Virus genome (UHGV): UHGV-0172001
Length of the DNA stretch: 46,559 nucleotides
DNA from: a virus
Direction: 5' to 3' (one strand)
A model generated the notes under the pieces. The model searched no databases. It was not told the origin of the DNA and saw only the letters and a list, made by a program, of their open reading frames with translations. How positions within the stretch are numbered: the first letter of the stretch is position 1; every line of letters starts with the position of its first letter. Made by a program: the position numbers and the translations under genes. Below, piece after piece: positions 132 to 41,614 of this stretch.

Positions 132-349
132 TTTTCCCCAAAACAGGACCACGCATTTTACAGCATTTTTATACATGGGTGAGCTTACTAGGACAGAAAA
201 GTATTCCAGTTTGTTTACCCATATCGCTTTCCGAATGAGATTTTTGATGTGATTTCTTCGTGTTGAAAAACCACATAATGTGGTATTAGAATTAGCTATC
301 AAGATTCACTTTGAATCCGTTTTGAATCCCATTGAACTCAGGAGTGACT

Positions 350-553
350 ATGAAGCGTAAAAGTGTGGCTTTGTTACAAGCCATTGGCTCGGTTATAGCC
401 CTGAGCCCGACGGTCGTTTCAGCAAATGGTATGCCAGCGAATCCAGTTTCCGCTTTGCGTCAGGATGCTGCGGCTATCAGAGGCGATTTCCAAAAAGCAA
501 TGGTATCCGTTAACGTTGAAAAGCTGAACAATGCCAGATCAAAAAGAAAGTGA
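350..553 (+). CDS. Small hypothetical protein with a signal-peptide-like N-terminus (67 aa)
   Basis: AGGAGTG RBS 4 nt upstream of ATG 350. MKRKSVALLQAIGSVIALSPTVVSA is followed by a polar tail. It overlaps the next gene by 23 nt. Confidence 0.45.
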   Translation: MKRKSVALLQAIGSVIALSPTVVSANGMPANPVSALRQDAAAIRGDFQKAMVSVNVEKLNNARSKRK

Positions 554-998
554 GAACACCAAACTCACTTGTGAAGAACAAAAGGATAATGAACTGGTTT
601 CTCGAGTAATCGAAAATCCAGAGGTCTTAAACAGGGTTTTGGATAGTCCGCAGGTGCGGGCTATTGTTTGCCAGCATTTTCAGGGGCCTGTTCCGCCACC
701 TTCAATGCTTAAAAAGTATGATCAACTGGTGCCTGGGCTTGCAAATCGACTTGTTGAGTTGACCGAAAAAGAGCAGGCTCATCGCCATAAAACAGTGGCT
801 GATAGCATTGATATTGCCAGAGATGGTCAAACAAAGGCTTTTTGGTTGGCAATATTGATCATCTTAGCTGCCACTGTCTTTGGCGTCATGGGGGAGACAG
901 TTCTTGCCGGAACTCTCGTTTCAATAGATCTTGTTGCATTGGTTACGGCATTTATTGTTGGAAAACATTATTCTAAGCAGGAACCTGATCAAGATTAG
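531..998 (+). CDS. DUF2335-like membrane protein (155 aa, two C-terminal TM helices)
   Basis: Polar N-terminal half with PPPSMLKKYDQLVPGLANRLVELTEKEQAHRH, then the hydrophobic stretches FWLAILIILAATVFGVMG and LVSIDLVALVTAFIVG. The family assignment is from memory of the DUF2335 pattern. Confidence 0.5.
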   Translation: MPDQKESENTKLTCEEQKDNELVSRVIENPEVLNRVLDSPQVRAIVCQHFQGPVPPPSMLKKYDQLVPGLANRLVELTEKEQAHRHKTVADSIDIARDGQTKAFWLAILIILAATVFGVMGETVLAGTLVSIDLVALVTAFIVGKHYSKQEPDQD

Positions 999-1074: not shown

Positions 1075-2193
1075 TCAAACAACCAATTTAACCCATTCCT
1101 GACCACGAGTATCGTTATAACGATCGGTGGTTGCCTGGACTTTATGTCCCAGTAATGTTTTTGTATCAATACCCTGCGCGCGGTACAGTCGTTCTGACAG
1201 GGAGCGTTGTTCATGAAATGTTGGCGGAGTTTTTCCTGCTGGTGGAGTTATCCCAGCCAGATCCCGTGCTTTGGCAAAGTAGTCGCTCAGGTTGTCTTTA
1301 CTCATCGGCTTTGGTTGTTTCTGGTGCCGACTATGGATTAGATATGGACTTAATATTCTGTCTCGGCACCCATCAATAACTTCTTTTAACGTTATCCCAA
1401 TGGCATCACAGCGTAGTGTAAGCGGTAACGCCAGACGCATTCCGGTTTTTCCCTGGGTGATATGCAAGTGTTCGTTCCACACATCTGAAAAACGCATGTG
1501 GCAAATGTCATCACGGCGCTGACCAGTAACAATCGCAAGAAGCATTGCGTTACGGATAAAGTGTTTTTCAGGCGTTGCGTTGTAAATTTTTTGCCAGTCT
1601 TCCAGGGTGAGCCTGGCTCTAGTTACTTTAGGGATCGGTTTACGGGTAGCCTCCGGAGGATTCCATCCAGGAGGAACTTCCCCTGCATGCTGTGCTTCTT
1701 TATAAATATCAACCCATAATCCACGATTTACTCTCGCTGTGCTGACCATGTCTTTATCCAGCCACTCATCCAGTATTAATGCAAAGTCTCTTACTTCCAG
1801 TTCTTTCAATGGGTAGTTTCCCAGACGGGAAACCAGGTATGCAGCCATTCGGGCTTTTTCTTTGTGAGTTGTAGCTGCAATATCTCCATTTTTCAGTCGC
1901 GTGTCCTGTATTTTCAGATATCGATCAACCCATGCCTTTAATCTGATACCCCGACGTTTTGTTGCTGACGGGCTTTCATCAATTTTGCGCATGAAATATT
2001 CAGCTTCTGCTGCTGCTATTCGCTGATTGGCTGTGGAAGCAATTTTTTCTGCTTTACCTTTATCTGTTCCGAGTCCGTGAAATTTTCCAGTCACAGGGTT
2101 TTTATACTGGTAGTAAACCCTGCCAGTTCTGCGATCAAACTTTTCGTAAAGACCGGCTACGTCAGTGCTGTTTTTTCGTGGCCTCGGTGACAT
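1075..2193 (-). CDS. int: Tyrosine recombinase, phage integrase (372 aa)
   Basis: C-terminal catalytic signature (GQRRDD..., HEQRSL, LGHKVQATTDRY). The position next to xis and the prophage end fits. Confidence 0.9.
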   Translation of the reverse strand: MSPRPRKNSTDVAGLYEKFDRRTGRVYYQYKNPVTGKFHGLGTDKGKAEKIASTANQRIAAAEAEYFMRKIDESPSATKRRGIRLKAWVDRYLKIQDTRLKNGDIAATTHKEKARMAAYLVSRLGNYPLKELEVRDFALILDEWLDKDMVSTARVNRGLWVDIYKEAQHAGEVPPGWNPPEATRKPIPKVTRARLTLEDWQKIYNATPEKHFIRNAMLLAIVTGQRRDDICHMRFSDVWNEHLHITQGKTGMRLALPLTLRCDAIGITLKEVIDGCRDRILSPYLIHSRHQKQPKPMSKDNLSDYFAKARDLAGITPPAGKTPPTFHEQRSLSERLYRAQGIDTKTLLGHKVQATTDRYNDTRGQEWVKLVV

Positions 2194-2431
2194 GAGTTAA
2201 AATCTCCTTCAGTGCATCATCATCGCCAGTATGAATTTCCGGCGCAATTCCCGTTTCACTTGGTCCAACAAATACTGCCCGGCGATCTATCAGCCAACGC
2301 CCACGAATTTTTTGTGGTCTCGGAACGATGTATCCAAGTTTTCCGTATTTCACCAAGGTAGTGTTTGTTATTGGGAGGCTGAACCGTTTAGGTTTCCACT
2401 CGTCGAGCGTTATCAGGTACTGTTCGCTCAT
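2162..2431 (-). CDS. xis: Excisionase-like DNA-binding protein
   Basis: YLITLDEWKPKRF...LVKYGKLGYIVPRPQKIRGRWLIDRRAV resembles the lambda Xis winged-helix pattern. It overlaps the int start. The start was chosen at MSEQYL. Confidence 0.65.
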   Translation of the reverse strand: MSEQYLITLDEWKPKRFSLPITNTTLVKYGKLGYIVPRPQKIRGRWLIDRRAVFVGPSETGIAPEIHTGDDDALKEILTHVTEATKKQH

Positions 2432-2492
2432 GGCTATCACTCCGGAACGCGCCAGTTGCAGAATACCAACGACAACTGGCGACGGTTGAACA

Positions 2493-4949
2493 TTAAAAAT
2501 CAGCCTGACTCGGGATCAGTTTTTGCCAGATAGCTGAAACGTATTTTGCCTGGTAACGGGCGTCATCAAGTGCATTATGGCGCTCACCTTCGAATGGAAT
2601 AGCCGTTCTGGCATCGAAGTCTATGGCTTTCCCCAGCTCAACGATTGTGCGTACATCGCGATCGTTGTAGTAGCTCCACGGGCAGGGGATCCCCTGCCGT
2701 TCGTATGAACGGCGTAAAATCACGTTGTTGAAGTTGGCTTCCTTCCCCCAGATCTGAACAAAAAATTCACCGGAGTTTTCGTCGATAAATTCCCGCAATT
2801 GCAGCAGTGCATCATCTAACGGGATTTCATCGGTCATAATGGCAGATTGCGCTTCGCGTGATTGTTTACACCAGTACTTTATTGCGCCCCGGTCGATGAC
2901 TCCGCCAGCAGTTTCCAGATCGATGGTCTTGCTAAATTCCGGCCCCATATCTCCGGTTTGCGGATCGTAAAATATTGCACCTATTGAGATAATCGGGGCA
3001 TCGGGACTTGTGCCCATAGTTTTAAGGACGATCATCAAGTGGTGCCACACCCTGCTGGTGGATGTGCTTTCATGATGACCGTTCACCTTAACTGAGTGAT
3101 TTGTCGCCTCGCCAGTTTTATTATCGCTATCGTGATGCTGATTGCTGCCAGGGTTCTCCTTGTGTGGATGTTCAGCGTCTTCCATTTCCTTCGGATCATT
3201 TTCCTGAACTTCAACCTGATTCTCTTCATCGAATGTTTCCTGGTATGTTGCGTCGCCCATCACCGCGCCACAATCAGGGCAGTTGCCGCCACCGCTCTGA
3301 CCGCAGGCGGTGCAGACTTTTTCCAGTTCCTGTTGCGCTACTGGCTCGGATTGTTTCGTTTCTGGCTCGTTTTGTTGCGCATTTCGGCTGTTTTGTTCCG
3401 CTTTCTGGTCGTTCTGTTCCGATTCTTGCTGGTTCTGGTTTACAGAATCGCGGGTTTCAATCCCCTTCACCCATTTCGGATCATTCGGGTCGCTAATCCC
3501 TGCAACAAATTCTCCGCGAGAGGCCGCAAGCAACTTATTGGCGTCAGGCTGGCTGATATTGGATGCCTGCATAATTTTGTTTACTTCGTCAGCGGTAACT
3601 TTTACCTGATTAGCCGGATCTATCTGTGCCTGAGTATCCAGCGATTGCGTGTCCTGGCGATGTTCAGTTGTATCCGGCTCCATTGTTTCAGCCGTTGCCT
3701 GTTCATCTGCCATTGCGTCAGACGGTTGTGATTTTTCCTCATTATTTTTTTCTTCTTCTGTTTCGCGTTTAGCAGCCAGTTCGCGGTTAACTTCTTCCAG
3801 GATATCTTTTTCCGGTGTATGTCGTGCAGCAGCGAGAGTTTCCTCGGTAGGGTTCTCGTGATCAGTCTCCGTTAAATAGGCGTTGATATACCCCTGAAGG
3901 CGTCCCGGGTAATGATAAAACTCAGGGTGTGCGCTCCGGATAAGTGCAAAAATAGCGGCGCGGGAGTAATCCAGGATACCCGGGATTGCGCGAAGTGCTG
4001 CGGACCATTCTTTGAACGGACTTTCTTTCTTCCGGACGACTTCTTTTGCGCGACGATAAACGCTGCCCGGAATTTCATAAATATTAAAATCCATCGGAAG
4101 TGTGGCCGCTGCTATCTCCACATCCAGCGTATCGAAGGTGTGTACTAAATTCGGATTGCGATCGGTTTTGTTCCCTCCACCGGCATTAGCACCGGAAGCC
4201 GTGCGGGTGATGCGTGAAACACGATTTCCTCTCATCCACTCTTTTGTCAGCAGACCGCGATCGGTGTAGTCAGCGTCCAGATATGCTTCGAAAAAAGCAG
4301 TCATTAGCCCCAGGCCTGAATTGCCAGGATTAGGGAAAACTTTGTCAGTATCACGCACCAGTTTGTGGAGATCGCGAATTTCCAGTGGATCGAGCAGACT
4401 GGTTTTATGCGAAATAGCGAGGGCAGTAACAGCCGGTAGTTCTTCAGCCCGTGCAATGTGTAATGCCTGGAGTTCGTCGCGTGAAACGTGCGTTACCGGT
4501 TTTTCGCTGCCGCGTTGAGCAAGCCAGCGAATGGGCAGTTCCTGACCGGAAACCGGCAGGAGCATGTTCTCCTCAATCTCAGCCATGTCTTCGCCGTTGA
4601 CGTTGGTATTGTCAGTGCTGGCTGGTTTATCCTGAACAGAGGGCGAGGGCGCGATAAGTACCATTGTGATACCATCTTCCCCGCCTTTTTCGTATCGGTT
4701 GCAGAATTTGGTATCAAACACGCCTTCCGGAGGAAGGTCATTCACAACGGGTAAATGGACGCGAACAGGTTTTTTAAAATCCTCTTCGTCAAATCCAGCA
4801 TCGTCCATTGCGACAACACCGCGTGATATTGCAACCGATAATTTTTTTGCTGTGCGCCAGTAAAAACCGCCTTTAATCCCAAGGCGTTTTCTGACTTTGT
4901 CATTTTTTGCTTCGTAATATAGTGCAATTTCTTCTTTATCAGCGCTCAT
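2493..4949 (-). CDS. RecE-N-terminal-region-like protein with a C-terminal DnaQ/DEDDh-type (Rv2179c-like) 3'-5' exonuclease domain (818 aa)
   Basis: Residues about 110-640 are colinear with my recollection of the Rac RecE N-terminal region ([42 protein letters not shown], Zn-ribbon [28 protein letters not shown]). The last ~190 aa instead carry [25 protein letters not shown] and HNALDDA, which are DEDDh motifs. Confidence 0.8.
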
Positions 4950-5026: not shown

Positions 5027-5230
5027 TTACGGTGCTGTTTTAAGTCCTGCCGGGACTTCGTTATTATCCATGCGAATAACTTTATCGACCGGATAACAGT
5101 TACCGGGAATTTTCTGTTCATCTGCGGCAGCCATGCATTCTTCCATTGAGTCACGTATATCAACAATAAGATCAAGTGGTTCGCCTGTATTAAGAAAAAC
5201 TGTCAGAACGAGTGCGTATGCTGTATTCAT
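5027..5230 (-). CDS. ydfD: YdfD-like small protein (Qin prophage lysis-associated protein homolog)
   Basis: MNTAYALVLTVFLNTGEP...EQKIPGNCYPVDKVI closely matches my recollection of E. coli YdfD. ATGA overlap with the dicB stop. Confidence 0.8.
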   Translation of the reverse strand: MNTAYALVLTVFLNTGEPLDLIVDIRDSMEECMAAADEQKIPGNCYPVDKVIRMDNNEVPAGLKTAP

Positions 5231-5415
5231 TGCCAGTATCCTTTTTGCATCAGACGTAAACGGGCCAGCATTGAAACAATGCATATTTGATTTAATAACT
5301 CCCGTTCGTGTTTTCTCTTATTAATGGCATCTTCAGTAAATGCAGGGTTACTGATACTGACACCAATTTCAAAACAACCTTCAGACGTATTAACGTTTGG
5401 TAATAACGTTTCCAT
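5227..5415 (-). CDS. dicB: Cell division inhibitor DicB (62 aa)
   Basis: METLLPNVNTSEGCFEIGVSISNPAFTEDAINKRKHERELLNQICIVSMLARLRLM is near-identical to K-12 DicB as I recall it. Confidence 0.9.
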   Translation of the reverse strand: METLLPNVNTSEGCFEIGVSISNPAFTEDAINKRKHERELLNQICIVSMLARLRLMQKGYWQ

Positions 5416-6194: not shown

Positions 6195-6845
6195 TTACCA
6201 GTTAATCCATAGCGGATAGTGTTCAGCATAAATATAGCTATACACATCCAGGTTGTATTTGCGGTCTGTCCTTAGCAGGTCGCAAATACACGCCGCAGCT
6301 TCCAGGGCGGAAGCTTTGTTGCTGAATAACCATGTAGCAACATTCCAGCGATTATCTTTATCCCACTCTTTTGCGAGAGCTGACACCACGAAGGAGCCGT
6401 TGGTGTTGCCATCAAATACTTCCGTTTCCAGATTTTTAAGTAATGCCTGGTGAATTTTTGCCAGGTATTCAGTCGGAATTTCGCCACGGATTCGGATAAG
6501 GTTGTCATAAACAAACATGTTTCCCGCATATGGCGATTTTTCTTCCTTGTTTTTTAAACCAGCATCATGAGCAAACTGATCAATTTCTTCTTCCGTTGGT
6601 TTCGTATTGATGTTTTGCGCTGTCGTTTCTGCAATTTTCTTTGCCGAATTCTCTTTGTAGTCATTGTTCGGGAACGAGTAAGAATACAGACCGACAAAAG
6701 AATTGCGGACATTATTTGATAAATTTCTGATGAACACTTTATCTACTAATATCATTGGGTTCTGCGCCAGTTGCGAGCGAATCACATCAGCGGCCATTTC
6801 CTGTATTGATATTGGTAAATCTTCAAATTCCATCGTCAACCTCAT
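6195..6845 (-). CDS. Hypothetical protein (216 aa), AT-rich orphan in the PL operon
   Basis: Long ORF whose start is translationally coupled (TGATG) to the upstream ydfA-like gene. No motif recognised. Visibly lower GC than its neighbours. Confidence 0.6.
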   Translation of the reverse strand: MRLTMEFEDLPISIQEMAADVIRSQLAQNPMILVDKVFIRNLSNNVRNSFVGLYSYSFPNNDYKENSAKKIAETTAQNINTKPTEEEIDQFAHDAGLKNKEEKSPYAGNMFVYDNLIRIRGEIPTEYLAKIHQALLKNLETEVFDGNTNGSFVVSALAKEWDKDNRWNVATWLFSNKASALEAAACICDLLRTDRKYNLDVYSYIYAEHYPLWINW

Positions 6846-11580: not shown

Positions 11581-11799
11581 GTGTCTACATTATTCAGAAA
11601 AGAATATCCGCGAAAAAGTAGAGCGACAGAATTTTTGTTTCTCATTCTGTTTATCGTGTTGATGACACCGATATCCCCGCTAATTTTTGTCTGGGCAATC
11701 GGGAAAATAATTGAGCCAGTTATTGAATTATATAACGACGTGGTATGGGCGTCGTTCAATACACTGCACAATAAAATTAATCCATATAAGGAAAACTGA
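11581..11799 (+). CDS. Small membrane protein (72 aa)
   Basis: AAGGAG RBS 6 nt before GTG 11581. Hydrophobic core FLFLILFIVLMTPISPLIFVWAIG. AT-rich. Confidence 0.4.
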   Translation: MSTLFRKEYPRKSRATEFLFLILFIVLMTPISPLIFVWAIGKIIEPVIELYNDVVWASFNTLHNKINPYKEN

Positions 11800-11800
11800 A

Positions 11801-12166
11801 ATGGCACTGACGAAAAAACAACGTGCAGAGCTGCGCATGAAGTTCGGCGGTCGCTGTGCTTATTGTGGCTGCGAACTTGGCGAAAAGTGGCATGTAGACC
11901 ATGTAAAACCGGTCATTCGTTTTGCTGGAAATATGCTTCACCAGGAACGTGACGATATATCCAACATGGTTCCGGCATGCCACCCATGCAATCTGCATAA
12001 GCATTGCAGTAGCCTGGAAGATTATCGGCGAATTATCAGTGATGGTCGTCGTGAATTCCTTGCGTCCGGGAAAGGCAAGGCGCTGGTTCGTATGGGATTG
12101 GTTGAAATGAAATCTGACCCGGTTGTGTTCTGGTTTGAAAAATATCAAGAAGGGGCTACCGCATGA
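11801..12166 (+). CDS. HNH endonuclease (121 aa)
   Basis: CAYCGCEL...WHVDHVKP...N.VPACHPCNLHK is an HNH motif. Confidence 0.8.
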   Translation: MALTKKQRAELRMKFGGRCAYCGCELGEKWHVDHVKPVIRFAGNMLHQERDDISNMVPACHPCNLHKHCSSLEDYRRIISDGRREFLASGKGKALVRMGLVEMKSDPVVFWFEKYQEGATA

Positions 12167-14114: not shown

Positions 14115-14132
14115 TAATGGGTATTGTGCTCT

Positions 14133-14618
14133 ATGGCTGAGATTGTTGAAGGAGTGCACTATCTTTCGGTTGATGATCTTACTGAAATCAATCGCCTTTT
14201 AATTGAGCTTCAAACACCAGATGAACCTGTAGGTGTGCTGAGTGTTGATAATTTAAGTTCTTCTCAGGCCCGTCCCAGCATGGTTCGATGGTATGAACAG
14301 ACTAATGACATGTTTGTACTGGCATCGGTATTGATTGAAAGTCTGATTCAGAATCATCCGTTTGCTAATGCGAACAAACGAACAGCTATGATGGCTGGTT
14401 ACGTCTTCTTGTTGTTGAATGGCTATGAGTTAACAGCACCAGGCGATGAAATCGTTGAAATGGCAGAGGGACTGGCCTGCAAAACCTATACTCGAGAAGA
14501 TCTCGAGAACTGGTTGTGTTATTGGTCTCGCGCGTATGACAGCCGGGAATTATGTAAAACAGGCGCAACTATTGTTTTGTATGAAACTATCAAGCTTAAA
14601 ATAGAACAGCAAAACTAA
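14133..14618 (+). CDS. doc: Fic/Doc family toxin (Doc-like kinase)
   Basis: HPFANANKRTAMMAGYVFLLLNG matches the Doc-type Fic motif H.F..(A/G)NKR. Size and the small upstream partner are typical of phd-doc. Confidence 0.8.
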   Translation: MAEIVEGVHYLSVDDLTEINRLLIELQTPDEPVGVLSVDNLSSSQARPSMVRWYEQTNDMFVLASVLIESLIQNHPFANANKRTAMMAGYVFLLLNGYELTAPGDEIVEMAEGLACKTYTREDLENWLCYWSRAYDSRELCKTGATIVLYETIKLKIEQQN

Positions 14619-15360: not shown

Positions 15361-16410
15361 GTGCGGGTATTGCTTCGACCTGTTCCGGTACCGGAACTTG
15401 GGCTGGTGGTGCTAAAACCGGGCCGTGAATCCATGCGGGTATTTCATAATCCTCGAGTACTGGTGGAGCCGGAACCGAAAAGCATGTGCAGTCTGCCGTC
15501 CGGAGTTGTTCCTGCCGTTCGCCAGCCGCTGGCGGAAGATAAATCATTGCTGCCATTTTTCAGCGACGAACGGGTGATTCGTGCTGCCGGCGGCGCTGGT
15601 GCACTGTCTGACTGGCTCCTGCGTCATGTTAAATCCTGCCAGTGGCCTCATGGTGACTACCATCACAGTGAAACCGTCATACATCGTTACGGTACCGGCG
15701 CGATGGTGTTGTGCTGGCACTGCGACAACCAGCTGCGGGACCAGACCTCAGAATCACTTGAGCAACTTGCTCAACAAAACCTGACAGCATGGATGATTGA
15801 CGTCATCCGTCACGCAATAAGCGGTGCGCAGGAGCGTGAATTATCGCTGGCTGAATTATCCTGGTGGGCTGTCTGCAATCAGGTGGCGGACGCACTACCG
15901 GAGGTAGTATTACGTCGTTCTCTGGGGTTACGTGCGGAAAAAATTCGCTCGGTGTACCGCGAAAGCGACATCATACCGGGAGAGCAGACAGCCACCAGCA
16001 TACTGAAGCAGCGCACAAAAAATATTGCGCTACCACCTCACGCCCACCAGCAACAGAACCCACCACAGGAAAAGACGGTGGTAAGCATTGCCGTTGATCC
16101 AGATTCTCCGGAATCTTTCATGAAGCGCCCTAAACGTCGCCGCTGGGTTAACGAGAAATACACGCGCTGGGTAAAGATGCAGCCGTGTGCGTGTTGTGGT
16201 AAGCCAGCCGACGATCCCCATCACCTGATTGGTCACGGTCAGGGAGGGATGGGAACAAAGGCCCACGATATTTTTACGCTACCGCTGTGCCGGGAGCATC
16301 ACAACGAACTTCATGCTGATCCGCTGGCATTTGAAGAAAAGCATGGTTCCCAGATTGATTTAATTTTTCGTTTTCTTGATCACGCCTTTGCAACCGGTGT
16401 GCTCGGGTAA
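15361..16410 (+). CDS. DUF968 protein, YdfU-like, with a C-terminal HNH-like Cys/His cluster (349 aa)
   Basis: CACCGKPADDPHHLIGHGQGGMGTKAHD..LPLCREHHNELH. Same size and position (before rusA and Q) as Qin YdfU. Confidence 0.7.
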   Translation: MRVLLRPVPVPELGLVVLKPGRESMRVFHNPRVLVEPEPKSMCSLPSGVVPAVRQPLAEDKSLLPFFSDERVIRAAGGAGALSDWLLRHVKSCQWPHGDYHHSETVIHRYGTGAMVLCWHCDNQLRDQTSESLEQLAQQNLTAWMIDVIRHAISGAQERELSLAELSWWAVCNQVADALPEVVLRRSLGLRAEKIRSVYRESDIIPGEQTATSILKQRTKNIALPPHAHQQQNPPQEKTVVSIAVDPDSPESFMKRPKRRRWVNEKYTRWVKMQPCACCGKPADDPHHLIGHGQGGMGTKAHDIFTLPLCREHHNELHADPLAFEEKHGSQIDLIFRFLDHAFATGVLG

Positions 16411-19068: not shown

Positions 19069-20115
19069 ATGGCTAATACTGTAAAAATATCCAGTTGTGA
19101 GTTAATCAACGCTGATTGCCTGGAATTTATCCAGACCTTACCGGAAAACTCTGTCGATCTGATAGTCACAGACCCGCCATACTTTAAAGTGAAGCCCGAA
19201 GGCTGGGATAACCAGTGGAAGGGTGACGATGATTATCTGAAATGGCTGGACCAGTGTCTGGCGCAATTCTGGCGGGTATTAAAGCCTGCCGGAAGTCTTT
19301 ACCTGTTCTGTGGTCATCGCCTGGCATCTGATATCGAAATCATGATGCGTGAACGCTTTAATGTGCTGAACCACATTATCTGGGCGAAGCCGTCCGGGCG
19401 CTGGAACGGGTGCAACAAGGAAAGCCTGCGGGCGTATTTTCCGGCAACAGAACGCATTCTGTTTGCTGAACATTATCAGGGGCCATACCAGCCCAAAAAT
19501 GACGGCTATGCGGCAAAGGGGCGCGAGCTAAAACAGCACGTCATGGCCCCGCTGATTTCTTACTTTCGTGATGCGCGTGAATTACTGGGAATAACGTCAA
19601 AACAGATAGCGGAAGCCACCGGAAAGAAAAACATGGCTTCGCACTGGTTTGGCACCAGTCAGTGGCAGTTGCCGAACGAAGGCGATTATCTGAAATTACA
19701 GGCGTTGTTTGCGCGTGTTGCAGCAGAAAAACATCAGCGCGGTGAACTGGAAAAGCCACACCACCAGCTGGTCAGCACATACAGTGAACTGAACCGGCAA
19801 TATGCCAGTCTGCTGGAGGAGTACAAATCCCTGCGGCGTTATTTTTCCGTATCGGCTGCCGTTCCGTATACGGATGTCTGGACGCACAAGCCTGTGCAGT
19901 ATTACCCCGGCAAACATCCCTGTGAGAAACCGGCGGATATGTTGCGTCAGATAATTACCGCCAGCAGCCATCCGGGAGATTTGGTCGCTGATTTTTTTAT
20001 GGGGTCGGGGTCAACAATAAAAGCAGCATTATCGCTGGGAAGGCGTGCAATAGGTGTGGAACTGGAAGAAGAGAGATTTAACCAGACTGTAATTGAAATA
20101 AAAAATAATCGTTAA
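19069..20115 (+). CDS. Beta-class N6-adenine/N4-cytosine DNA methyltransferase (348 aa)
   Basis: Motif IV IVTDPPYF lies near the N-terminus and motif I DFFMGSGST near the C-terminus. No adjacent endonuclease. Confidence 0.85.
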   Translation: MANTVKISSCELINADCLEFIQTLPENSVDLIVTDPPYFKVKPEGWDNQWKGDDDYLKWLDQCLAQFWRVLKPAGSLYLFCGHRLASDIEIMMRERFNVLNHIIWAKPSGRWNGCNKESLRAYFPATERILFAEHYQGPYQPKNDGYAAKGRELKQHVMAPLISYFRDARELLGITSKQIAEATGKKNMASHWFGTSQWQLPNEGDYLKLQALFARVAAEKHQRGELEKPHHQLVSTYSELNRQYASLLEEYKSLRRYFSVSAAVPYTDVWTHKPVQYYPGKHPCEKPADMLRQIITASSHPGDLVADFFMGSGSTIKAALSLGRRAIGVELEEERFNQTVIEIKNNR

Positions 20116-40138: not shown

Positions 40139-41614
40139 ATGTCCGGATTACATGGTGTTGAAACCATTGAACTGACGACAGGCACGGTTGCCGTGCAGAC
40201 CATCTCCACGGCAGTGATTGGCCTGGTGGGGACAGCGCCGGACGCCTCTGGTGGTGTGTGCGCTTCCGGCACAGCCGGCTCCTGGCTGCTGGGAACGGCG
40301 CTGGATTTCACGGCGAAACAGGAAGGCCGGGCCGGCAATAAGATTTCGGTGGTTGCCGTCGCGGCCACAGAACAAAGCGCGCAGACCACGGCCTCACTGG
40401 AAGGTACAACCCTGACGATAAAGCTGGGGACGGATGAACACAGCCAGGTTAACGCCACGGTGGACCGTGTAACTGAAGTGGTGAATGCACTGGGTGATTC
40501 ACCTGTGACGGCGGCGGTCAGTACCCTGAATGCAGGGAGCGCTGAAAATAATGTGGTGTCGCCATTCAGCCTGACGTTATCCGGCGGGGAAGATGAGGCG
40601 TTCCCGGTTAATACACCAGTTGTGGTGGCAGGAGCCATTACTCAGGCAGGAAAACTGGGGGCCGCCGGAACACTGTATCCGGCCCTGCGAGATATTTTTG
40701 ATCAGACCGGTGCACTGGTGATTGTGGTACGTGCGGAAAGCAAACCGAAAGCGAAAGAGGCTGAACAACGCGCGGCGGTGATTAAGGCCATGGAAGCGCT
40801 GACAGAGAGTAAAGGTGTGACGGGCTATCAGCCGCGCATTCTCATTGCCACGGGTTACAGTGAGGATGATGGTGTGGCAAAGGCGCTGGAAACGTATGCC
40901 GCGAAGCTGCGGGCTGTGGCCTATATCGACTCTCCCTCAATGGCAACGCCGCAGGATGTGGTTCAGCGGCGCGCATCCTTTGGCGGGCGCGTGGAACTGA
41001 TGCGCCCACGCGTGTCAGTAACGGATGACAGCGGGCAGATGGTATTTCGTCCGTATTCGGCGCGCGCTGCCGGGCTGCGTGCCCGTATTGATTACGAAAA
41101 AGGGTGGTGGTGGTCCAAATCAAACCAGGACGTGATGAATATCACCGGTCTGGAGCAGGTGGATACGTTTATTCTCGGGGAGCAGAACTGCACGGCAAAC
41201 CTGCTGAACATGGAAAATATCTCCACCATTATTCGTCACGACGGCTTTAAGCACTGGGGGAACCGTCTGTGTTCATCCCACAGTCAGTGGCGCTTTGAGC
41301 CGGTACGCCGTACTGCAGATGTGATTGAGGACAGTATTCAGGAGGCCATGCTGCCTTATGTCGATCGCCCGCTGGATCGTGATGTGGCGGACGACATTCT
41401 TGGCAGTATTAATGCCTATATGCGTCAGCTTAAAAATCTGGGCGCGATCCACGGTGGCAGAGCCTGGCTGAATGATGAACTGAACACAGCAGAAACCCTG
41501 GCTGCCGGGCAGTTGTATATCGATTATGACTTTGGACCGAAGTCACCACTGGAACGCCTGACACTGCGGGCGATGATTAACAATAAACTGGCGCTGGAGG
41601 AGCTGACGGTATGA
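40139..41614 (+). CDS. FI: Contractile tail sheath protein (491 aa)
   Basis: MSGLHGVETIE...IGLVGTAP N-terminus and C-terminal sheath pattern. It precedes the tube gene. Confidence 0.85.
   Translation: MSGLHGVETIELTTGTVAVQTISTAVIGLVGTAPDASGGVCASGTAGSWLLGTALDFTAKQEGRAGNKISVVAVAATEQSAQTTASLEGTTLTIKLGTDEHSQVNATVDRVTEVVNALGDSPVTAAVSTLNAGSAENNVVSPFSLTLSGGEDEAFPVNTPVVVAGAITQAGKLGAAGTLYPALRDIFDQTGALVIVVRAESKPKAKEAEQRAAVIKAMEALTESKGVTGYQPRILIATGYSEDDGVAKALETYAAKLRAVAYIDSPSMATPQDVVQRRASFGGRVELMRPRVSVTDDSGQMVFRPYSARAAGLRARIDYEKGWWWSKSNQDVMNITGLEQVDTFILGEQNCTANLLNMENISTIIRHDGFKHWGNRLCSSHSQWRFEPVRRTADVIEDSIQEAMLPYVDRPLDRDVADDILGSINAYMRQLKNLGAIHGGRAWLNDELNTAETLAAGQLYIDYDFGPKSPLERLTLRAMINNKLALEELTV

What the first reader, a model, noticed from the sequence alone, without database searches (positions are those of the whole stretch)
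2493..4949. RecE-like scaffold with a swapped and apparently inactivated exonuclease domain, and no annealase
About 530 aa match my recollection of the dispensable N-terminal region of Rac RecE, including the Zn-ribbon CxxC...CPDCG. The C-terminal PD-(D/E)XK exonuclease VIII domain is replaced by a DnaQ-like DEDDh (Rv2179c-like) domain.

In that domain the expected Exo I D-x-E on strand 1 reads V-L-K (LMIVLKTMG; codons gtc 3029-3027 and aaa 3023-3021). The Exo II aspartate reads N (ANFNNVIL; aac 2729-2727). Each change is a single nucleotide away from the acidic codon. Exo III (HNALDDA) is intact.

No recT/bet-type annealase follows, because xis comes next. Two readings fit. The locus may be a decaying recombination module in an otherwise intact phage. 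Alternatively it may be a pseudo-nuclease retained for binding, for example as a nuclease decoy or inhibitor.
Basis: partly seen in the sequence, partly recalled or inferred. Interest (0 to 1): 0.55.

Follow-up and report, generated by a model that had tools for sequence, protein, structure and literature searches.

The report
Catalytically dead prophage DexA-like exonuclease allele
This E. coli prophage gene is a rare natural allele of a very common phage exonuclease in which three of the five catalytic residues have been replaced, so it almost certainly no longer cuts nucleic acid, and the same first step (a glutamate turned into a lysine) has happened independently in several related bacteria.

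Summary
ORF 2493-4949 (-) encodes 818 aa. Residues 58-617 match Rac RecE 50-588 (58% identity). Residues 637-808 are a DEDDh domain (Pfam PF16473, E 2e-56) whose closest solved relative is phage T4 DexA. At the DexA catalytic positions D7/E9/D119/H186/D191 the window reads V641/K643/N741/H791/D796.

The architecture is ordinary. Full-length copies occur in 1,246 of 5,426 complete E. coli genomes and in isolated phages, always next to xis-int and never with recT. The missing annealase is therefore the family norm, not decay.

What is unusual is the allele. 124 of 128 family representatives keep D-E-D-H-D, and no complete E. coli genome carries V-K-N. It is real: 13 intact copies from independent assemblies sit in three different prophage backbones. 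It arose stepwise, E643K first, then D641V, D741N and N736K.

Glu-to-Lys at Exo I recurs in at least five independent lineages. One is a parallel dead allele in Citrobacter koseri.

Best reading: a loss-of-function allele whose metal pocket was neutralised while the reading frame was kept. A retained non-catalytic role is not excluded. Interest is moderate.

The parts
2493..4949 (-). Whole gene, 818 aa: RecE N-terminal region fused to a DexA-like DEDDh domain. This is the V-K-N allele.
   Evidence: ORF list. Exact protein present in public E. coli assemblies, HCQ9019863.1 and MGV6309950.1, on at least 9 contigs.
3096..4949 (-). RecE-like N-terminal region (aa 1-618). Its function is unknown in RecE itself.
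   Evidence: NF007259 aa 1-618 to profile 1-600/877. BLASTP to K-12 RecE gives 58% identity over aa 58-617. Pfam Exonuc_VIII at aa 56-189.
3267..3314 (-). Zinc-ribbon-like [16 protein letters not shown] (aa 546-561), conserved in Rac RecE.
   Evidence: Translation. Aligned with RecE ACNACGQTGGDNCPDCG. Weak Pfam DZR hit, E 0.13.
2526..3041 (-). DexA-like / Rv2179c-like DEDDh exonuclease fold (aa 637-808).
   Evidence: PF16473 E 2e-56. Profile hit to T4 DexA 8KEL/8KEN, E 3e-15. AF2 model pLDDT 89, pTM 0.86. Foldseek top hit DexA, E 6e-11, TM 0.76.
3021..3029 (-). Exo I position: V641-L-K643 where the family has D-L-E (GTC, CTT, AAA).
2724..2750 (-). Exo II region: WGKEANFNN where the family has WGNGA(N/T)FDN. 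Changes are N736K, G737E and D741N.
2559..2579 (-). Exo III: HNALDDA, with H791 and D796 intact.
2162..2440 (-). Excisionase, immediately downstream in the same leftward operon.
   Evidence: Pfam Exc PF07825, E 6e-5. Annotated excisionase in E. coli relatives.
1075..2193 (-). Lambda-type integrase. The prophage sits next to potC.
   Evidence: Pfam Arm-DNA-bind_1 plus Phage_integrase. Context in L003-L008.
5027..5415 (-). Upstream genes of the operon: DUF1482 and DicB. There is no annealase between the repressor and the exonuclease gene.
   Evidence: Pfam, PHROGs, tblastn with RecT finds nothing.

Best explanation
The gene is a natural, catalytically dead allele of a widespread lambdoid-prophage protein. 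That protein joins the N-terminal region of RecE (function unknown) to a DexA-like DEDDh 3'-5' exonuclease domain.

Canonical alleles carry the two-metal site D641/E643/D741/H791/D796. In this allele three of the four carboxylates are gone (V641, K643, N741), and the adjacent GNG loop reads GKE. The domain therefore cannot hold the two Mg2+ ions and cannot hydrolyse a 3' end.

This is inferred from the established mechanism of DEDDh enzymes and from the DexA catalytic residues named in PMC12153337.

The changes came in order. E643K arose first, together with G737E. That state is preserved in an Escherichia whittamii relative. D641V, D741N, N736K, N648S, F661Y and V733I followed.

The net effect is that a pocket carrying four negative charges becomes roughly neutral: K643 positive, D796 negative, and E737 next to K643. 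I infer that this stabilises a metal-free fold.

The rest of the protein and the reading frame are kept. The likely reasons are that the N-terminal region still matters and that translation must run through to xis-int. The allele has since been moved by recombination into at least three prophage backbones.

Most likely this is a loss of nuclease function that is tolerated, or mildly favoured, in lysogens. It is less likely to be a new activity.
For: - Catalytic positions are fixed by a profile alignment to a solved structure and by fold.
- Relatives at 92% identity keep D/E/D with codons one nucleotide away.
- Family conservation is 124 of 128 representatives.
- Stepwise order: P0010/L009 has D641, K643, WGYE and D741.
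- On the stem leading to V-K-N there are 6 nonsynonymous and 0 synonymous changes. That has P about 0.005-0.011 under the family's usual omega of 0.2-0.25, and P 0.23 under neutrality.
- All 13 V-K-N genes examined are intact ORFs, in three backbones with three different integrases.
- The parallel Citrobacter koseri dead alleles (E575K, D679A, A676Y/C, one also H729Y) have additionally changed the family-invariant R705 and V708. This is the pattern expected when constraint on nuclease function is relaxed.
- One K-only allele in IMG/VR is frameshifted.
- Rarity: 0 of 5,426 complete E. coli genomes carry V-K-N, and 2 of 5,426 carry the K-only 63-mer.
Against: - Glu-to-Lys is the shared step in about 7 of 9 variant lineages, with at least 5 independent origins. 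Under plain loss of function, other equally easy transitions (D to N, H to Y) should be as common. This points to selection on how the site is disabled.
- Within the V-K-N lineage the C-domain shows about 7 synonymous against 4-7 nonsynonymous changes, fewer replacements than neutrality predicts (P 0.003-0.018). Several of these sites may be recombination imports, which weakens the test.
- Pairwise omega for the dead C-domains is only 0.27-0.35.
- In the E. coli allele no conserved non-active-site column except F661 (F to Y) has been hit.
- No biochemical data exist for any of these alleles.
Confidence: 0.55

Rival explanations
1. Retained pseudo-nuclease. The dead DexA-like domain is kept because it still binds 3' ends or still oligomerises. 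DexA works as dimers and tetramers. The dead domain could act as an end-binding module, or as a dominant-negative or decoy partner for active paralogues from co-resident prophages or incoming phages. Glu-to-Lys would then be the preferred switch, because it kills chemistry while keeping the pocket folded.
For: - Recurrent, independent Glu-to-Lys origins.
- 13 of 13 intact ORFs spread over three prophage backbones.
- Replacements in the E. coli allele concentrate on Exo I, the GNG loop and Exo II. Other conserved columns are untouched apart from the conservative F661Y.
- Within-lineage N:S is below neutral.
- E. coli genomes carry a median of 2 and up to 9 copies of this gene family, so partners exist.
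- DexA oligomerisation is described in PMC12153337.
- Nuclease-dead prophage DEDDh 'TONDO' proteins can still defend (PMC13344964).
Against: - The lineages are small and young.
- The older C. koseri dead allele has lost invariant residues of the NDRDVRT motif, which argues against preserved substrate binding there.
- The selection tests are confounded by recombination.
- There is no direct evidence of binding or heteromer formation.
Confidence: 0.3
2. Still an active nuclease. Other residues (E737, D677/E679 of the IDLET segment, D650) would substitute for the lost carboxylates, or a lysine-assisted one-metal mechanism would operate.
For: G737E introduces a new carboxylate next to Exo II at the same step as E643K. 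H791 and D796 remain.
Against: - IDLET is present in canonical alleles too and is not conserved in the family.
- D650 is likewise shared with canonical alleles.
- The C. koseri, P0145 and P0225 variants lose further catalytic residues (H to Y, D to G) after Glu-to-Lys. This is not expected if activity were being preserved.
- To my knowledge, no DEDDh enzyme works with one carboxylate.
Confidence: 0.05
3. Remnant of a decaying RecET recombination module.
For: The N-terminal 600 aa are RecE-like, and the prophage has a Rac-type immunity region with YdaS and YdaT.
Against: - The RecE-N::DEDDh fusion without recT is the conserved, intact state in more than a thousand E. coli genomes and in plaque-forming phages such as mEp460, Evi, Tritos and HannyBb.
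- Its catalytic residues are normally conserved.
- It is therefore a stable alternative module, not a decaying one.
Confidence: 0.05
4. Sequencing or assembly artefact.
For: None.
Against: The identical protein occurs on at least 9 contigs from independent isolates and metagenomes. Related V-K-N alleles occur in other backbones.
Confidence: 0.01

Closest known systems
Canonical E. coli prophage 'exonuclease' / '3'-5' exonuclease' (for example WP_171463331.1 and WP_001542183.1; also annotated 'exodeoxyribonuclease VIII' in phages mEp460, Evi, Tritos)
   Same: - Same length and same architecture.
- 92% amino-acid identity.
- Same position between DUF1482/DicB and xis-int.
- No recT.
   Different: Canonical alleles read MIDLETMG, WGNGANFDN and HNALDDA. 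The window reads [17 protein letters not shown] and HNALDDA.
Rac prophage RecE (exonuclease VIII), E. coli K-12 b1350
   Same: N-terminal region: aa 58-617 aligned with RecE 50-588 at 58% identity, including the zinc ribbon. The immunity region of the prophage is Rac-like.
   Different: - There is no PD-(D/E)XK nuclease domain.
- There is no RecT partner, and no ralR or rcbA.
- The polarity of the attached nuclease family is 3'-5', not 5'-3'.
Phage T4 DexA (PDB 8KEL/8KEN) and the E. coli homologue EcD of the 'HREX' defence (PMC12153337)
   Same: DexA is the closest solved structure by profile (E 3e-15) and by fold (TM 0.76). The motif layout is shared: Exo I on strand 1, WW helix, Exo II, NDRDVRT, Exo III.
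   Different: - DexA and EcD keep all five catalytic residues and are active DNases.
- The window's domain has lost three, and it is fused to a 630-aa N-terminal region.
- Identity to DexA is only about 18%.
Citrobacter koseri prophage RecE-N-like::DexA-like dead alleles (P0141, P0280, P0282, P0283, P0286; BCL48915.1 on AP023452.1)
   Same: Independent parallel: same architecture and same position next to int. The changes are Exo I Glu to Lys, loss of the Exo II Asp and remodelling of the residue before Exo II. Canonical alleles coexist in the same 90% cluster.
   Different: - Exo I Asp is kept, and Exo II Asp becomes Ala rather than Asn.
- Invariant R705 and V708 are also changed.
- The C-domains are 59% identical to the window's.
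TONDO prophage DEDDh exonucleases with auxiliary domains (PMC13344964)
   Same: Prophage-borne DEDDh domain joined to an auxiliary domain of unknown function. In two of four tested cases a catalytic-dead mutant still defended.
   Different: These are ISG20-like proteins, chosen to be under 500 aa, that act on RNA phages. No sequence relation to this family was tested or shown here.

Membership tests
DEDDh (DnaQ-like) 3'-5' exonucleases, Rv2179c-like / DexA-like subfamily (PF16473) | Sequence profile match above the curated threshold | tested here: met
   PF16473: 191 bits against a cut-off of 27, aa 637-808 covering profile positions 2-177 of 177.
DEDDh (DnaQ-like) 3'-5' exonucleases, Rv2179c-like / DexA-like subfamily (PF16473) | DnaQ-like fold | tested here: met
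   AF2 model pLDDT 89.3, pTM 0.86. Foldseek top hits are T4 DexA, then RNase T and oligoribonuclease.
DEDDh (DnaQ-like) 3'-5' exonucleases, Rv2179c-like / DexA-like subfamily (PF16473) | Five catalytic residues D, E (Exo I), D (Exo II), H, D (Exo III) | tested here: not met
   V641, K643, N741, H791, D796. 124 of 128 family representatives have D-E-D-H-D.
DEDDh (DnaQ-like) 3'-5' exonucleases, Rv2179c-like / DexA-like subfamily (PF16473) | Metal-dependent 3'-5' exonuclease activity | not testable with these tools
   Needs purified protein.
RecE / exonuclease VIII (NCBIfam NF007259 equivalog) | Whole-protein score above the equivalog cut-off | tested here: not met
   921.8 bits against a cut-off of 1269. 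Only profile positions 1-600 of 877 are matched.
RecE / exonuclease VIII (NCBIfam NF007259 equivalog) | C-terminal PD-(D/E)XK 5'-3' nuclease domain | tested here: not met
   BLASTP similarity ends at RecE residue 588. tblastn of RecE 589-866 finds nothing in the window.
RecE / exonuclease VIII (NCBIfam NF007259 equivalog) | Adjacent RecT annealase partner | tested here: not met
   tblastn with K-12 RecT finds nothing. Neighbours are DUF1482, DicB and xis. The other early ORFs scanned show no annealase family.
RecE / exonuclease VIII (NCBIfam NF007259 equivalog) | RecE N-terminal region | tested here: met
   58% identity over 568 aligned columns. PF06630 E 1e-35.
HREX defence nucleases (bacterial DexA homologues, PMC12153337) | Homology to DexA | tested here: met
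HREX defence nucleases (bacterial DexA homologues, PMC12153337) | All exonuclease residues conserved | tested here: not met
   Three of five are replaced.
HREX defence nucleases (bacterial DexA homologues, PMC12153337) | 5hmC-recognition residues (DexA W152, D169) | tested here: inconclusive
   In the profile alignment W152 falls on Y761. This position is Y in the window and in L002, and W in many homologues. The alignment ends before D169.
HREX defence nucleases (bacterial DexA homologues, PMC12153337) | Protection against T4 / cleavage of 5hmC DNA | not testable with these tools
   Needs an experiment. PADLOC 2.0 has no model that matches.
Pseudoenzyme (pseudo-nuclease retained for a non-catalytic role) | Fold kept, catalytic residues lost | tested here: met
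Pseudoenzyme (pseudo-nuclease retained for a non-catalytic role) | Purifying selection on the dead domain after inactivation | tested here: inconclusive
   Within-lineage counts are 7 synonymous against 4-7 nonsynonymous, P 0.003-0.018 versus neutrality. Several sites look like recombination imports. The C. koseri dead allele shows hits at invariant positions.

The most novel reading that the evidence does not exclude
Exo I Glu-to-Lys would be a recurrent, selected switch that converts prophage DexA-like nucleases into non-cleaving proteins. These might be end-binders, or dominant-negative or decoy subunits acting on active paralogues or on phage DexA. The V-K-N allele would be the most advanced example, a metal-free pocket that neutralises its own charge.

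The evidence does not exclude this:
- at least five independent Glu-to-Lys origins;
- intact ORFs in every backbone;
- replacements confined to the active-site neighbourhood in the E. coli lineage.
Probability: 0.2. Interest if true: 0.6.

Novelty: new variant of a known kind. Interest (0 to 1): 0.38.

Why it matters
The RecE-N::DexA-like 'exonuclease' is one of the commonest early genes of E. coli lambdoid prophages. Similarity to its C-domain is found in about 4,000 of 5,426 complete genomes, often several per genome, yet its role is barely studied.

Natural dead alleles give a ready-made genetic contrast for asking what the nuclease does. Candidate roles are defence against modified-DNA phages as proposed for HREX, processing of phage DNA ends, or nothing in the lysogen.

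The stereotyped route of inactivation is Glu to Lys first, followed by loss of the Exo II Asp. It suggests a constraint on how a two-metal site can be switched off without unfolding the domain. That can be tested directly with stability and binding measurements.

If the dead proteins prove to be dominant-negative partners of active paralogues, this would be a new kind of interaction between co-resident prophages.

Tried and rejected
- **Single-sequence PDB search.** phmmer of the domain against PDB sequences found nothing useful. A 24-sequence profile was needed to reach DexA.
- **IDLET (aa 676-680) as a displaced Exo I.** Rejected. The segment is shared with canonical alleles and reads ISLES or ISLVD in homologues.
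- **Cluster sizes as allele counts.** I first read the cluster sizes of P0028 (649 members) and P0029 (167) as the number of Glu-to-Lys sequences. An exact 63-mer search showed only 2 of 5,426 complete genomes with it. In the C. koseri cluster the members differ at these very positions. Cluster sizes therefore cannot be used as allele counts.
- **Collection scans for the V-K-N Exo I 24-mer.** GTDB species representatives gave 0 hits. JGI metagenomes gave 1 hit, a contig already known.
- **Degenerate D-L-K-T-M-G scan of GTDB.** It returned mostly Patescibacteria and Planctomycetales MAG contigs, which I did not examine further, plus one useful Buttiauxella hit.
- **PADLOC.** No model matches the protein.
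- **Literature.**
  - The Rv2179c paper (JBC 2014) is not held.
  - 'PF16473' gave no papers.
  - A word-start search for 'full-length RecE' returned receptor papers.
- **Donor of the 685-695 patch.** The patch has 10 of 11 codons changed. I looked for a donor among 279 fetched homologues and found none.
- **Structure prediction.** It was redone with permitted rows.
- **Model coordinates.** They are not returned, so distances between K643, E737 and D796 could not be measured.
Full report
**What is there**

The minus-strand ORF 2493-4949 encodes 818 aa. Pfam finds the RecE N-terminal family Exonuc_VIII at aa 56-189 (E 1e-35). It finds the Rv2179c-like DEDDh domain PF16473 at aa 637-808 (E 2e-56, full profile coverage).

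The NCBIfam RecE equivalog aligns aa 1-618 to its first 600 of 877 positions and falls below its cut-off. BLASTP against K-12 RecE gives 58% identity for aa 58-617 against RecE 50-588. The match includes the CxxC...CPDCG ribbon and ends just before the RecE nuclease domain.

[quoted passage not shown] The window contains no RecT-like or RecE-nuclease-like sequence. The leftward early operon runs: repressor, DUF1391, a 216-aa unknown, DicB, DUF1482, this gene, xis, int.

As far as the window extends, the prophage also has Q, a DNA methyltransferase, large terminase, portal, protease, major capsid protein, tail fibre and tail sheath. It looks complete.

**Which residues sit at the catalytic positions**

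A single-sequence search of PDB found nothing. A profile of 24 homologues hit phage T4 DexA (8KEL/8KEN, E 3e-15).
- DexA FIIDFETMG aligns with window LMIVLKTMG.
- DexA SFD119 aligns with window NFN741.

The DexA paper names D7, E12 (as printed; the sequence shows E9), D119, H186 and D191 as the catalytic motif (PMC12153337).

An AlphaFold2 model of aa 631-818 is confident (pLDDT 89, pTM 0.86). Its best structural match in PDB is DexA (E 6e-11, TM 0.76), followed by RNase T and oligoribonucleases.

The window therefore reads V641, K643, N741, H791, D796 where the family needs D, E, D, H, D. The conserved GNG loop before Exo II reads GKE. The IDLET segment at 676-680 is not an alternative Exo I. 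Canonical alleles have it too, and more distant homologues read ISLES or ISLVD there.

**The architecture is ordinary; the allele is not**

Megablast finds full-length copies in 1,246 of 5,426 complete E. coli genomes. Similarity to the C-domain is present in 4,065 genomes. For the whole gene there is a median of two and up to nine matching places per genome.

In those genomes the gene sits in the same place, next to xis-int and downstream of DUF1482 and DicB, with no recT. Isolated phages carry it as well, including mEp460, Evi, Tritos and HannyBb. The missing annealase is therefore the normal state of this module.

The closest E. coli alleles (92% amino-acid identity) read MIDLETMG and WGNGANFDN, with codons GAC, GAA and GAC. 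Among 120 close homologues the consensus is MIDLETMG / WGNGA(N/T)FDN / HNALDDA.

A full scan of 1.84 billion representatives found 9,730 family members. Of the 128 top representatives covering all five columns, 124 are D-E-D-H-D.

No complete E. coli genome carries the V-K-N allele. The best nucleotide identity over the C-domain is 93.3%. Its Exo I 24-mer is absent from GTDB species representatives.

**The allele is real and has a history**

The exact protein is in public E. coli assemblies (HCQ9019863.1, MGV6309950.1) and on at least nine contigs.

Its 90% cluster has 14 members. All full-length members carry V-K-N and WGKE. I recovered DNA for 13 genes, and all are intact ORFs of 806, 818 or 825 aa. 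The length differences are in-frame indels in the acidic linker.

They lie in three prophage backbones with three different integrases and attachment sites:
- next to potC (the window and L003-L008, L017, L018);
- next to the rspB-like dehydrogenase (L010);
- next to yccA (L011, L015, L016).

25 codon positions are fixed in all V-K-N genes compared and differ from a state that L001 and L002 share. Of these, 22 fall between codons 610 and 741 and only three in the first 600 codons. The N-terminal region is thus freely recombining with ordinary alleles, while the dead segment travels as a unit.

An Escherichia whittamii fragment (P0010/L009) preserves an intermediate. It has D641, K643, WGYEASFD and D741, and it already carries T647, G688, A689, Y692, W694, E737 and S759.

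After that split, the stem leading to V-K-N has six changes, all nonsynonymous: D641V, N648S, F661Y, V733I, N/Y736K and D741N. It has no synonymous change. That outcome has probability 0.005-0.011 under the family's usual omega of 0.2-0.25, and 0.23 under neutrality. Constraint on these positions was therefore released or reversed.

The older stem has about nine replacements and eight synonymous changes. Ten of the eleven codons 685-695 are changed, five of them only synonymously. This looks like a conversion tract from an unsampled donor.

**Is the dead domain still under selection?**

Within the V-K-N lineage the C-domain shows about seven synonymous and four to seven nonsynonymous differences. 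That is fewer replacements than neutrality predicts (P 0.003-0.018).

Several of the variable sites are polymorphisms also seen in canonical alleles, so recombination imports may bias the test. Pairwise omega between the window and canonical alleles is 0.23-0.33, against 0.14-0.53 among alleles that keep all three carboxylates or lack only the Exo I Glu.

Apart from the Exo I, GNG and Exo II positions, the lineage's replacements fall on variable columns. The exceptions are the conservative F661Y and the unusual L694W/C. This is suggestive of a kept fold but is not significant once F661 is counted.

**A recurrent route**

The four non-canonical representatives are P0141 (D-K-A-H-D), P0145 (D-K-N-H-G), P0225 (D-K-N-G-D) and P0200 (D-E-D-H-G).

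P0141 stands for a Citrobacter koseri cluster of 38 proteins with the same RecE-N-like::DexA-like architecture. Of the 15 cluster proteins examined:
- five are dead (DLKTMG with GNG[Y/C]SFAN; one also has H to Y in Exo III);
- ten are canonical.

A dead and a canonical C. koseri allele sit in the same prophage at the same site. Their C-domains differ by 17 synonymous and 17 nonsynonymous changes (dS 0.147, omega 0.27), against dS 0.059 and omega 0.33 for the N-terminal part. The dead allele has also changed the family-invariant R705 and V708 of the NDRDVRT motif.

Glu-to-Lys alone occurs in three further settings:
- a Buttiauxella gaviniae stand-alone homologue;
- an E. coli background found in two complete genomes;
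- ten IMG/VR contigs, most also with W692R and one frameshifted.

D741N alone occurs in P0062.

Apart from V-K-N and its E. whittamii intermediate, which share one origin, each variant lineage is closer to a canonical relative than to any other variant lineage. There are therefore at least five independent Glu-to-Lys origins, and every multi-hit lineage includes it.

If the five catalytic codons were hit at random by their equally easy transitions, this dominance would be unlikely. My estimate is P about 0.005 for five of seven. This is my own calculation, not a tool output, and it rests on the assumed independence of the lineages.

**Interpretation**

It is shown that three of four metal-binding carboxylates are gone, that the fold signature is intact, that the allele is natural, rare and mobile, and that the changes came stepwise.

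It is inferred that the domain cannot carry out two-metal hydrolysis. It is also inferred that the successive changes neutralise a pocket that would otherwise hold four uncompensated negative charges. In the DnaQ sheet (order 3-2-1-4-5, from general knowledge of the fold) K643 sits at the end of strand 1 and E737 just after strand 4, so they are plausibly adjacent. I could not measure this because model coordinates are not returned.

I favour a tolerated loss of nuclease function with the frame kept (0.55). The reasons are:
- the lineages are rare and young;
- further catalytic and invariant residues keep being lost in the older C. koseri lineage;
- one K-only allele is already frameshifted.

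The frame may be kept because the N-terminal region is still used, or because a stop codon upstream of xis-int would be polar. Both reasons are inferences.

The rival is a retained pseudo-nuclease acting by binding or by poisoning oligomers of active paralogues (0.30). It is supported by the recurrence of one specific substitution, by the intact ORFs in three backbones and by the sub-neutral N:S ratio. Published work adds two relevant facts. DexA works as dimers and tetramers, and an E. coli homologue defends against T4 (PMC12153337). Some nuclease-dead prophage DEDDh proteins still defend against RNA phages (PMC13344964).

**Novelty and score**

The gene family and its architecture are already annotated in thousands of genomes. 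The dead allele is a new variant of a known kind.

The recurrent Glu-to-Lys route is, as far as the searched literature shows, not described. Interest is 0.38. The case is a clean and testable natural pseudo-enzyme, and a useful handle on a common but little-studied prophage gene, but it is not a new kind of system.

Noticed in passing
L044 4001-6259 (Citrobacter koseri AP023452.1) versus L045 4001-6259: There is an independent dead allele of the same fusion in C. koseri: E575K, A676Y, D679A, plus R705Q and V708A in the invariant NDRDVRT motif. It sits in the same prophage and att site as a canonical allele. One relative (P0283) also has H to Y in Exo III.
   Followed up: partly
L026 7024-7614 (Buttiauxella gaviniae); L034-L043 (IMG/VR): Exo I Glu-to-Lys as the only catalytic change occurs in a stand-alone 196-aa homologue and in ten E. 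coli-type viral contigs. Most of the E. coli-type ones also carry W692R (IKRWLKQS). L033 is frameshifted about 95 aa into the domain.
   Followed up: partly
window 3402-3404 region (aa 516) and L017/L018: Among V-K-N alleles there is an in-frame 7-aa insertion, AEQN(D/S)(Q/R)(K/N), that looks like a duplication in the acidic Q/E/N-rich linker. L010 carries in-frame deletions (806 aa).
   Followed up: no
window 332-998 (+): Between int and the host potC side lie a 155-aa DUF2335 membrane protein and a small upstream ORF, at the prophage end on the opposite strand. They look like a moron. The 155-aa protein gave a weak PADLOC hit to PD-T4-6 (E 0.002).
   Followed up: no
window 14124-14618 (+): A Doc-like toxin gene (phrog_577, E 2e-50) lies in the right arm, between the replication-proximal genes and Q.
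   Followed up: no
window 11711-12166 and 15361-16410 (+): There are two HNH endonuclease genes (phrog_2118 and phrog_96) in the early-right region.
   Followed up: no
window 19069-20115 (+) and 40139-41614 (+): A DNA methyltransferase lies downstream of Q. A tail sheath gene is also present, so a lambdoid/Rac-like early region is joined to a contractile-tail morphogenesis module.
   Followed up: no
window 2862-2894 (codons 685-695 of the gene): Ten of eleven consecutive codons differ from all canonical alleles, five of them only synonymously. This looks like a short conversion tract from a donor not found among 279 fetched homologues.
   Followed up: partly
NZ_CM129040.1 1109151-1111054 (hit H57): In this E. 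coli genome the homologous gene is annotated as two features, '3'-5' exoribonuclease domain-containing protein' and 'RecE family exodeoxyribonuclease'. That suggests a split or disrupted copy.
   Followed up: no
window 6195-6845 (-): A 216-aa early-left protein has no Pfam family and matches only a PHROG of unknown function (phrog_2151). It is conserved at this position in related prophages.
   Followed up: no
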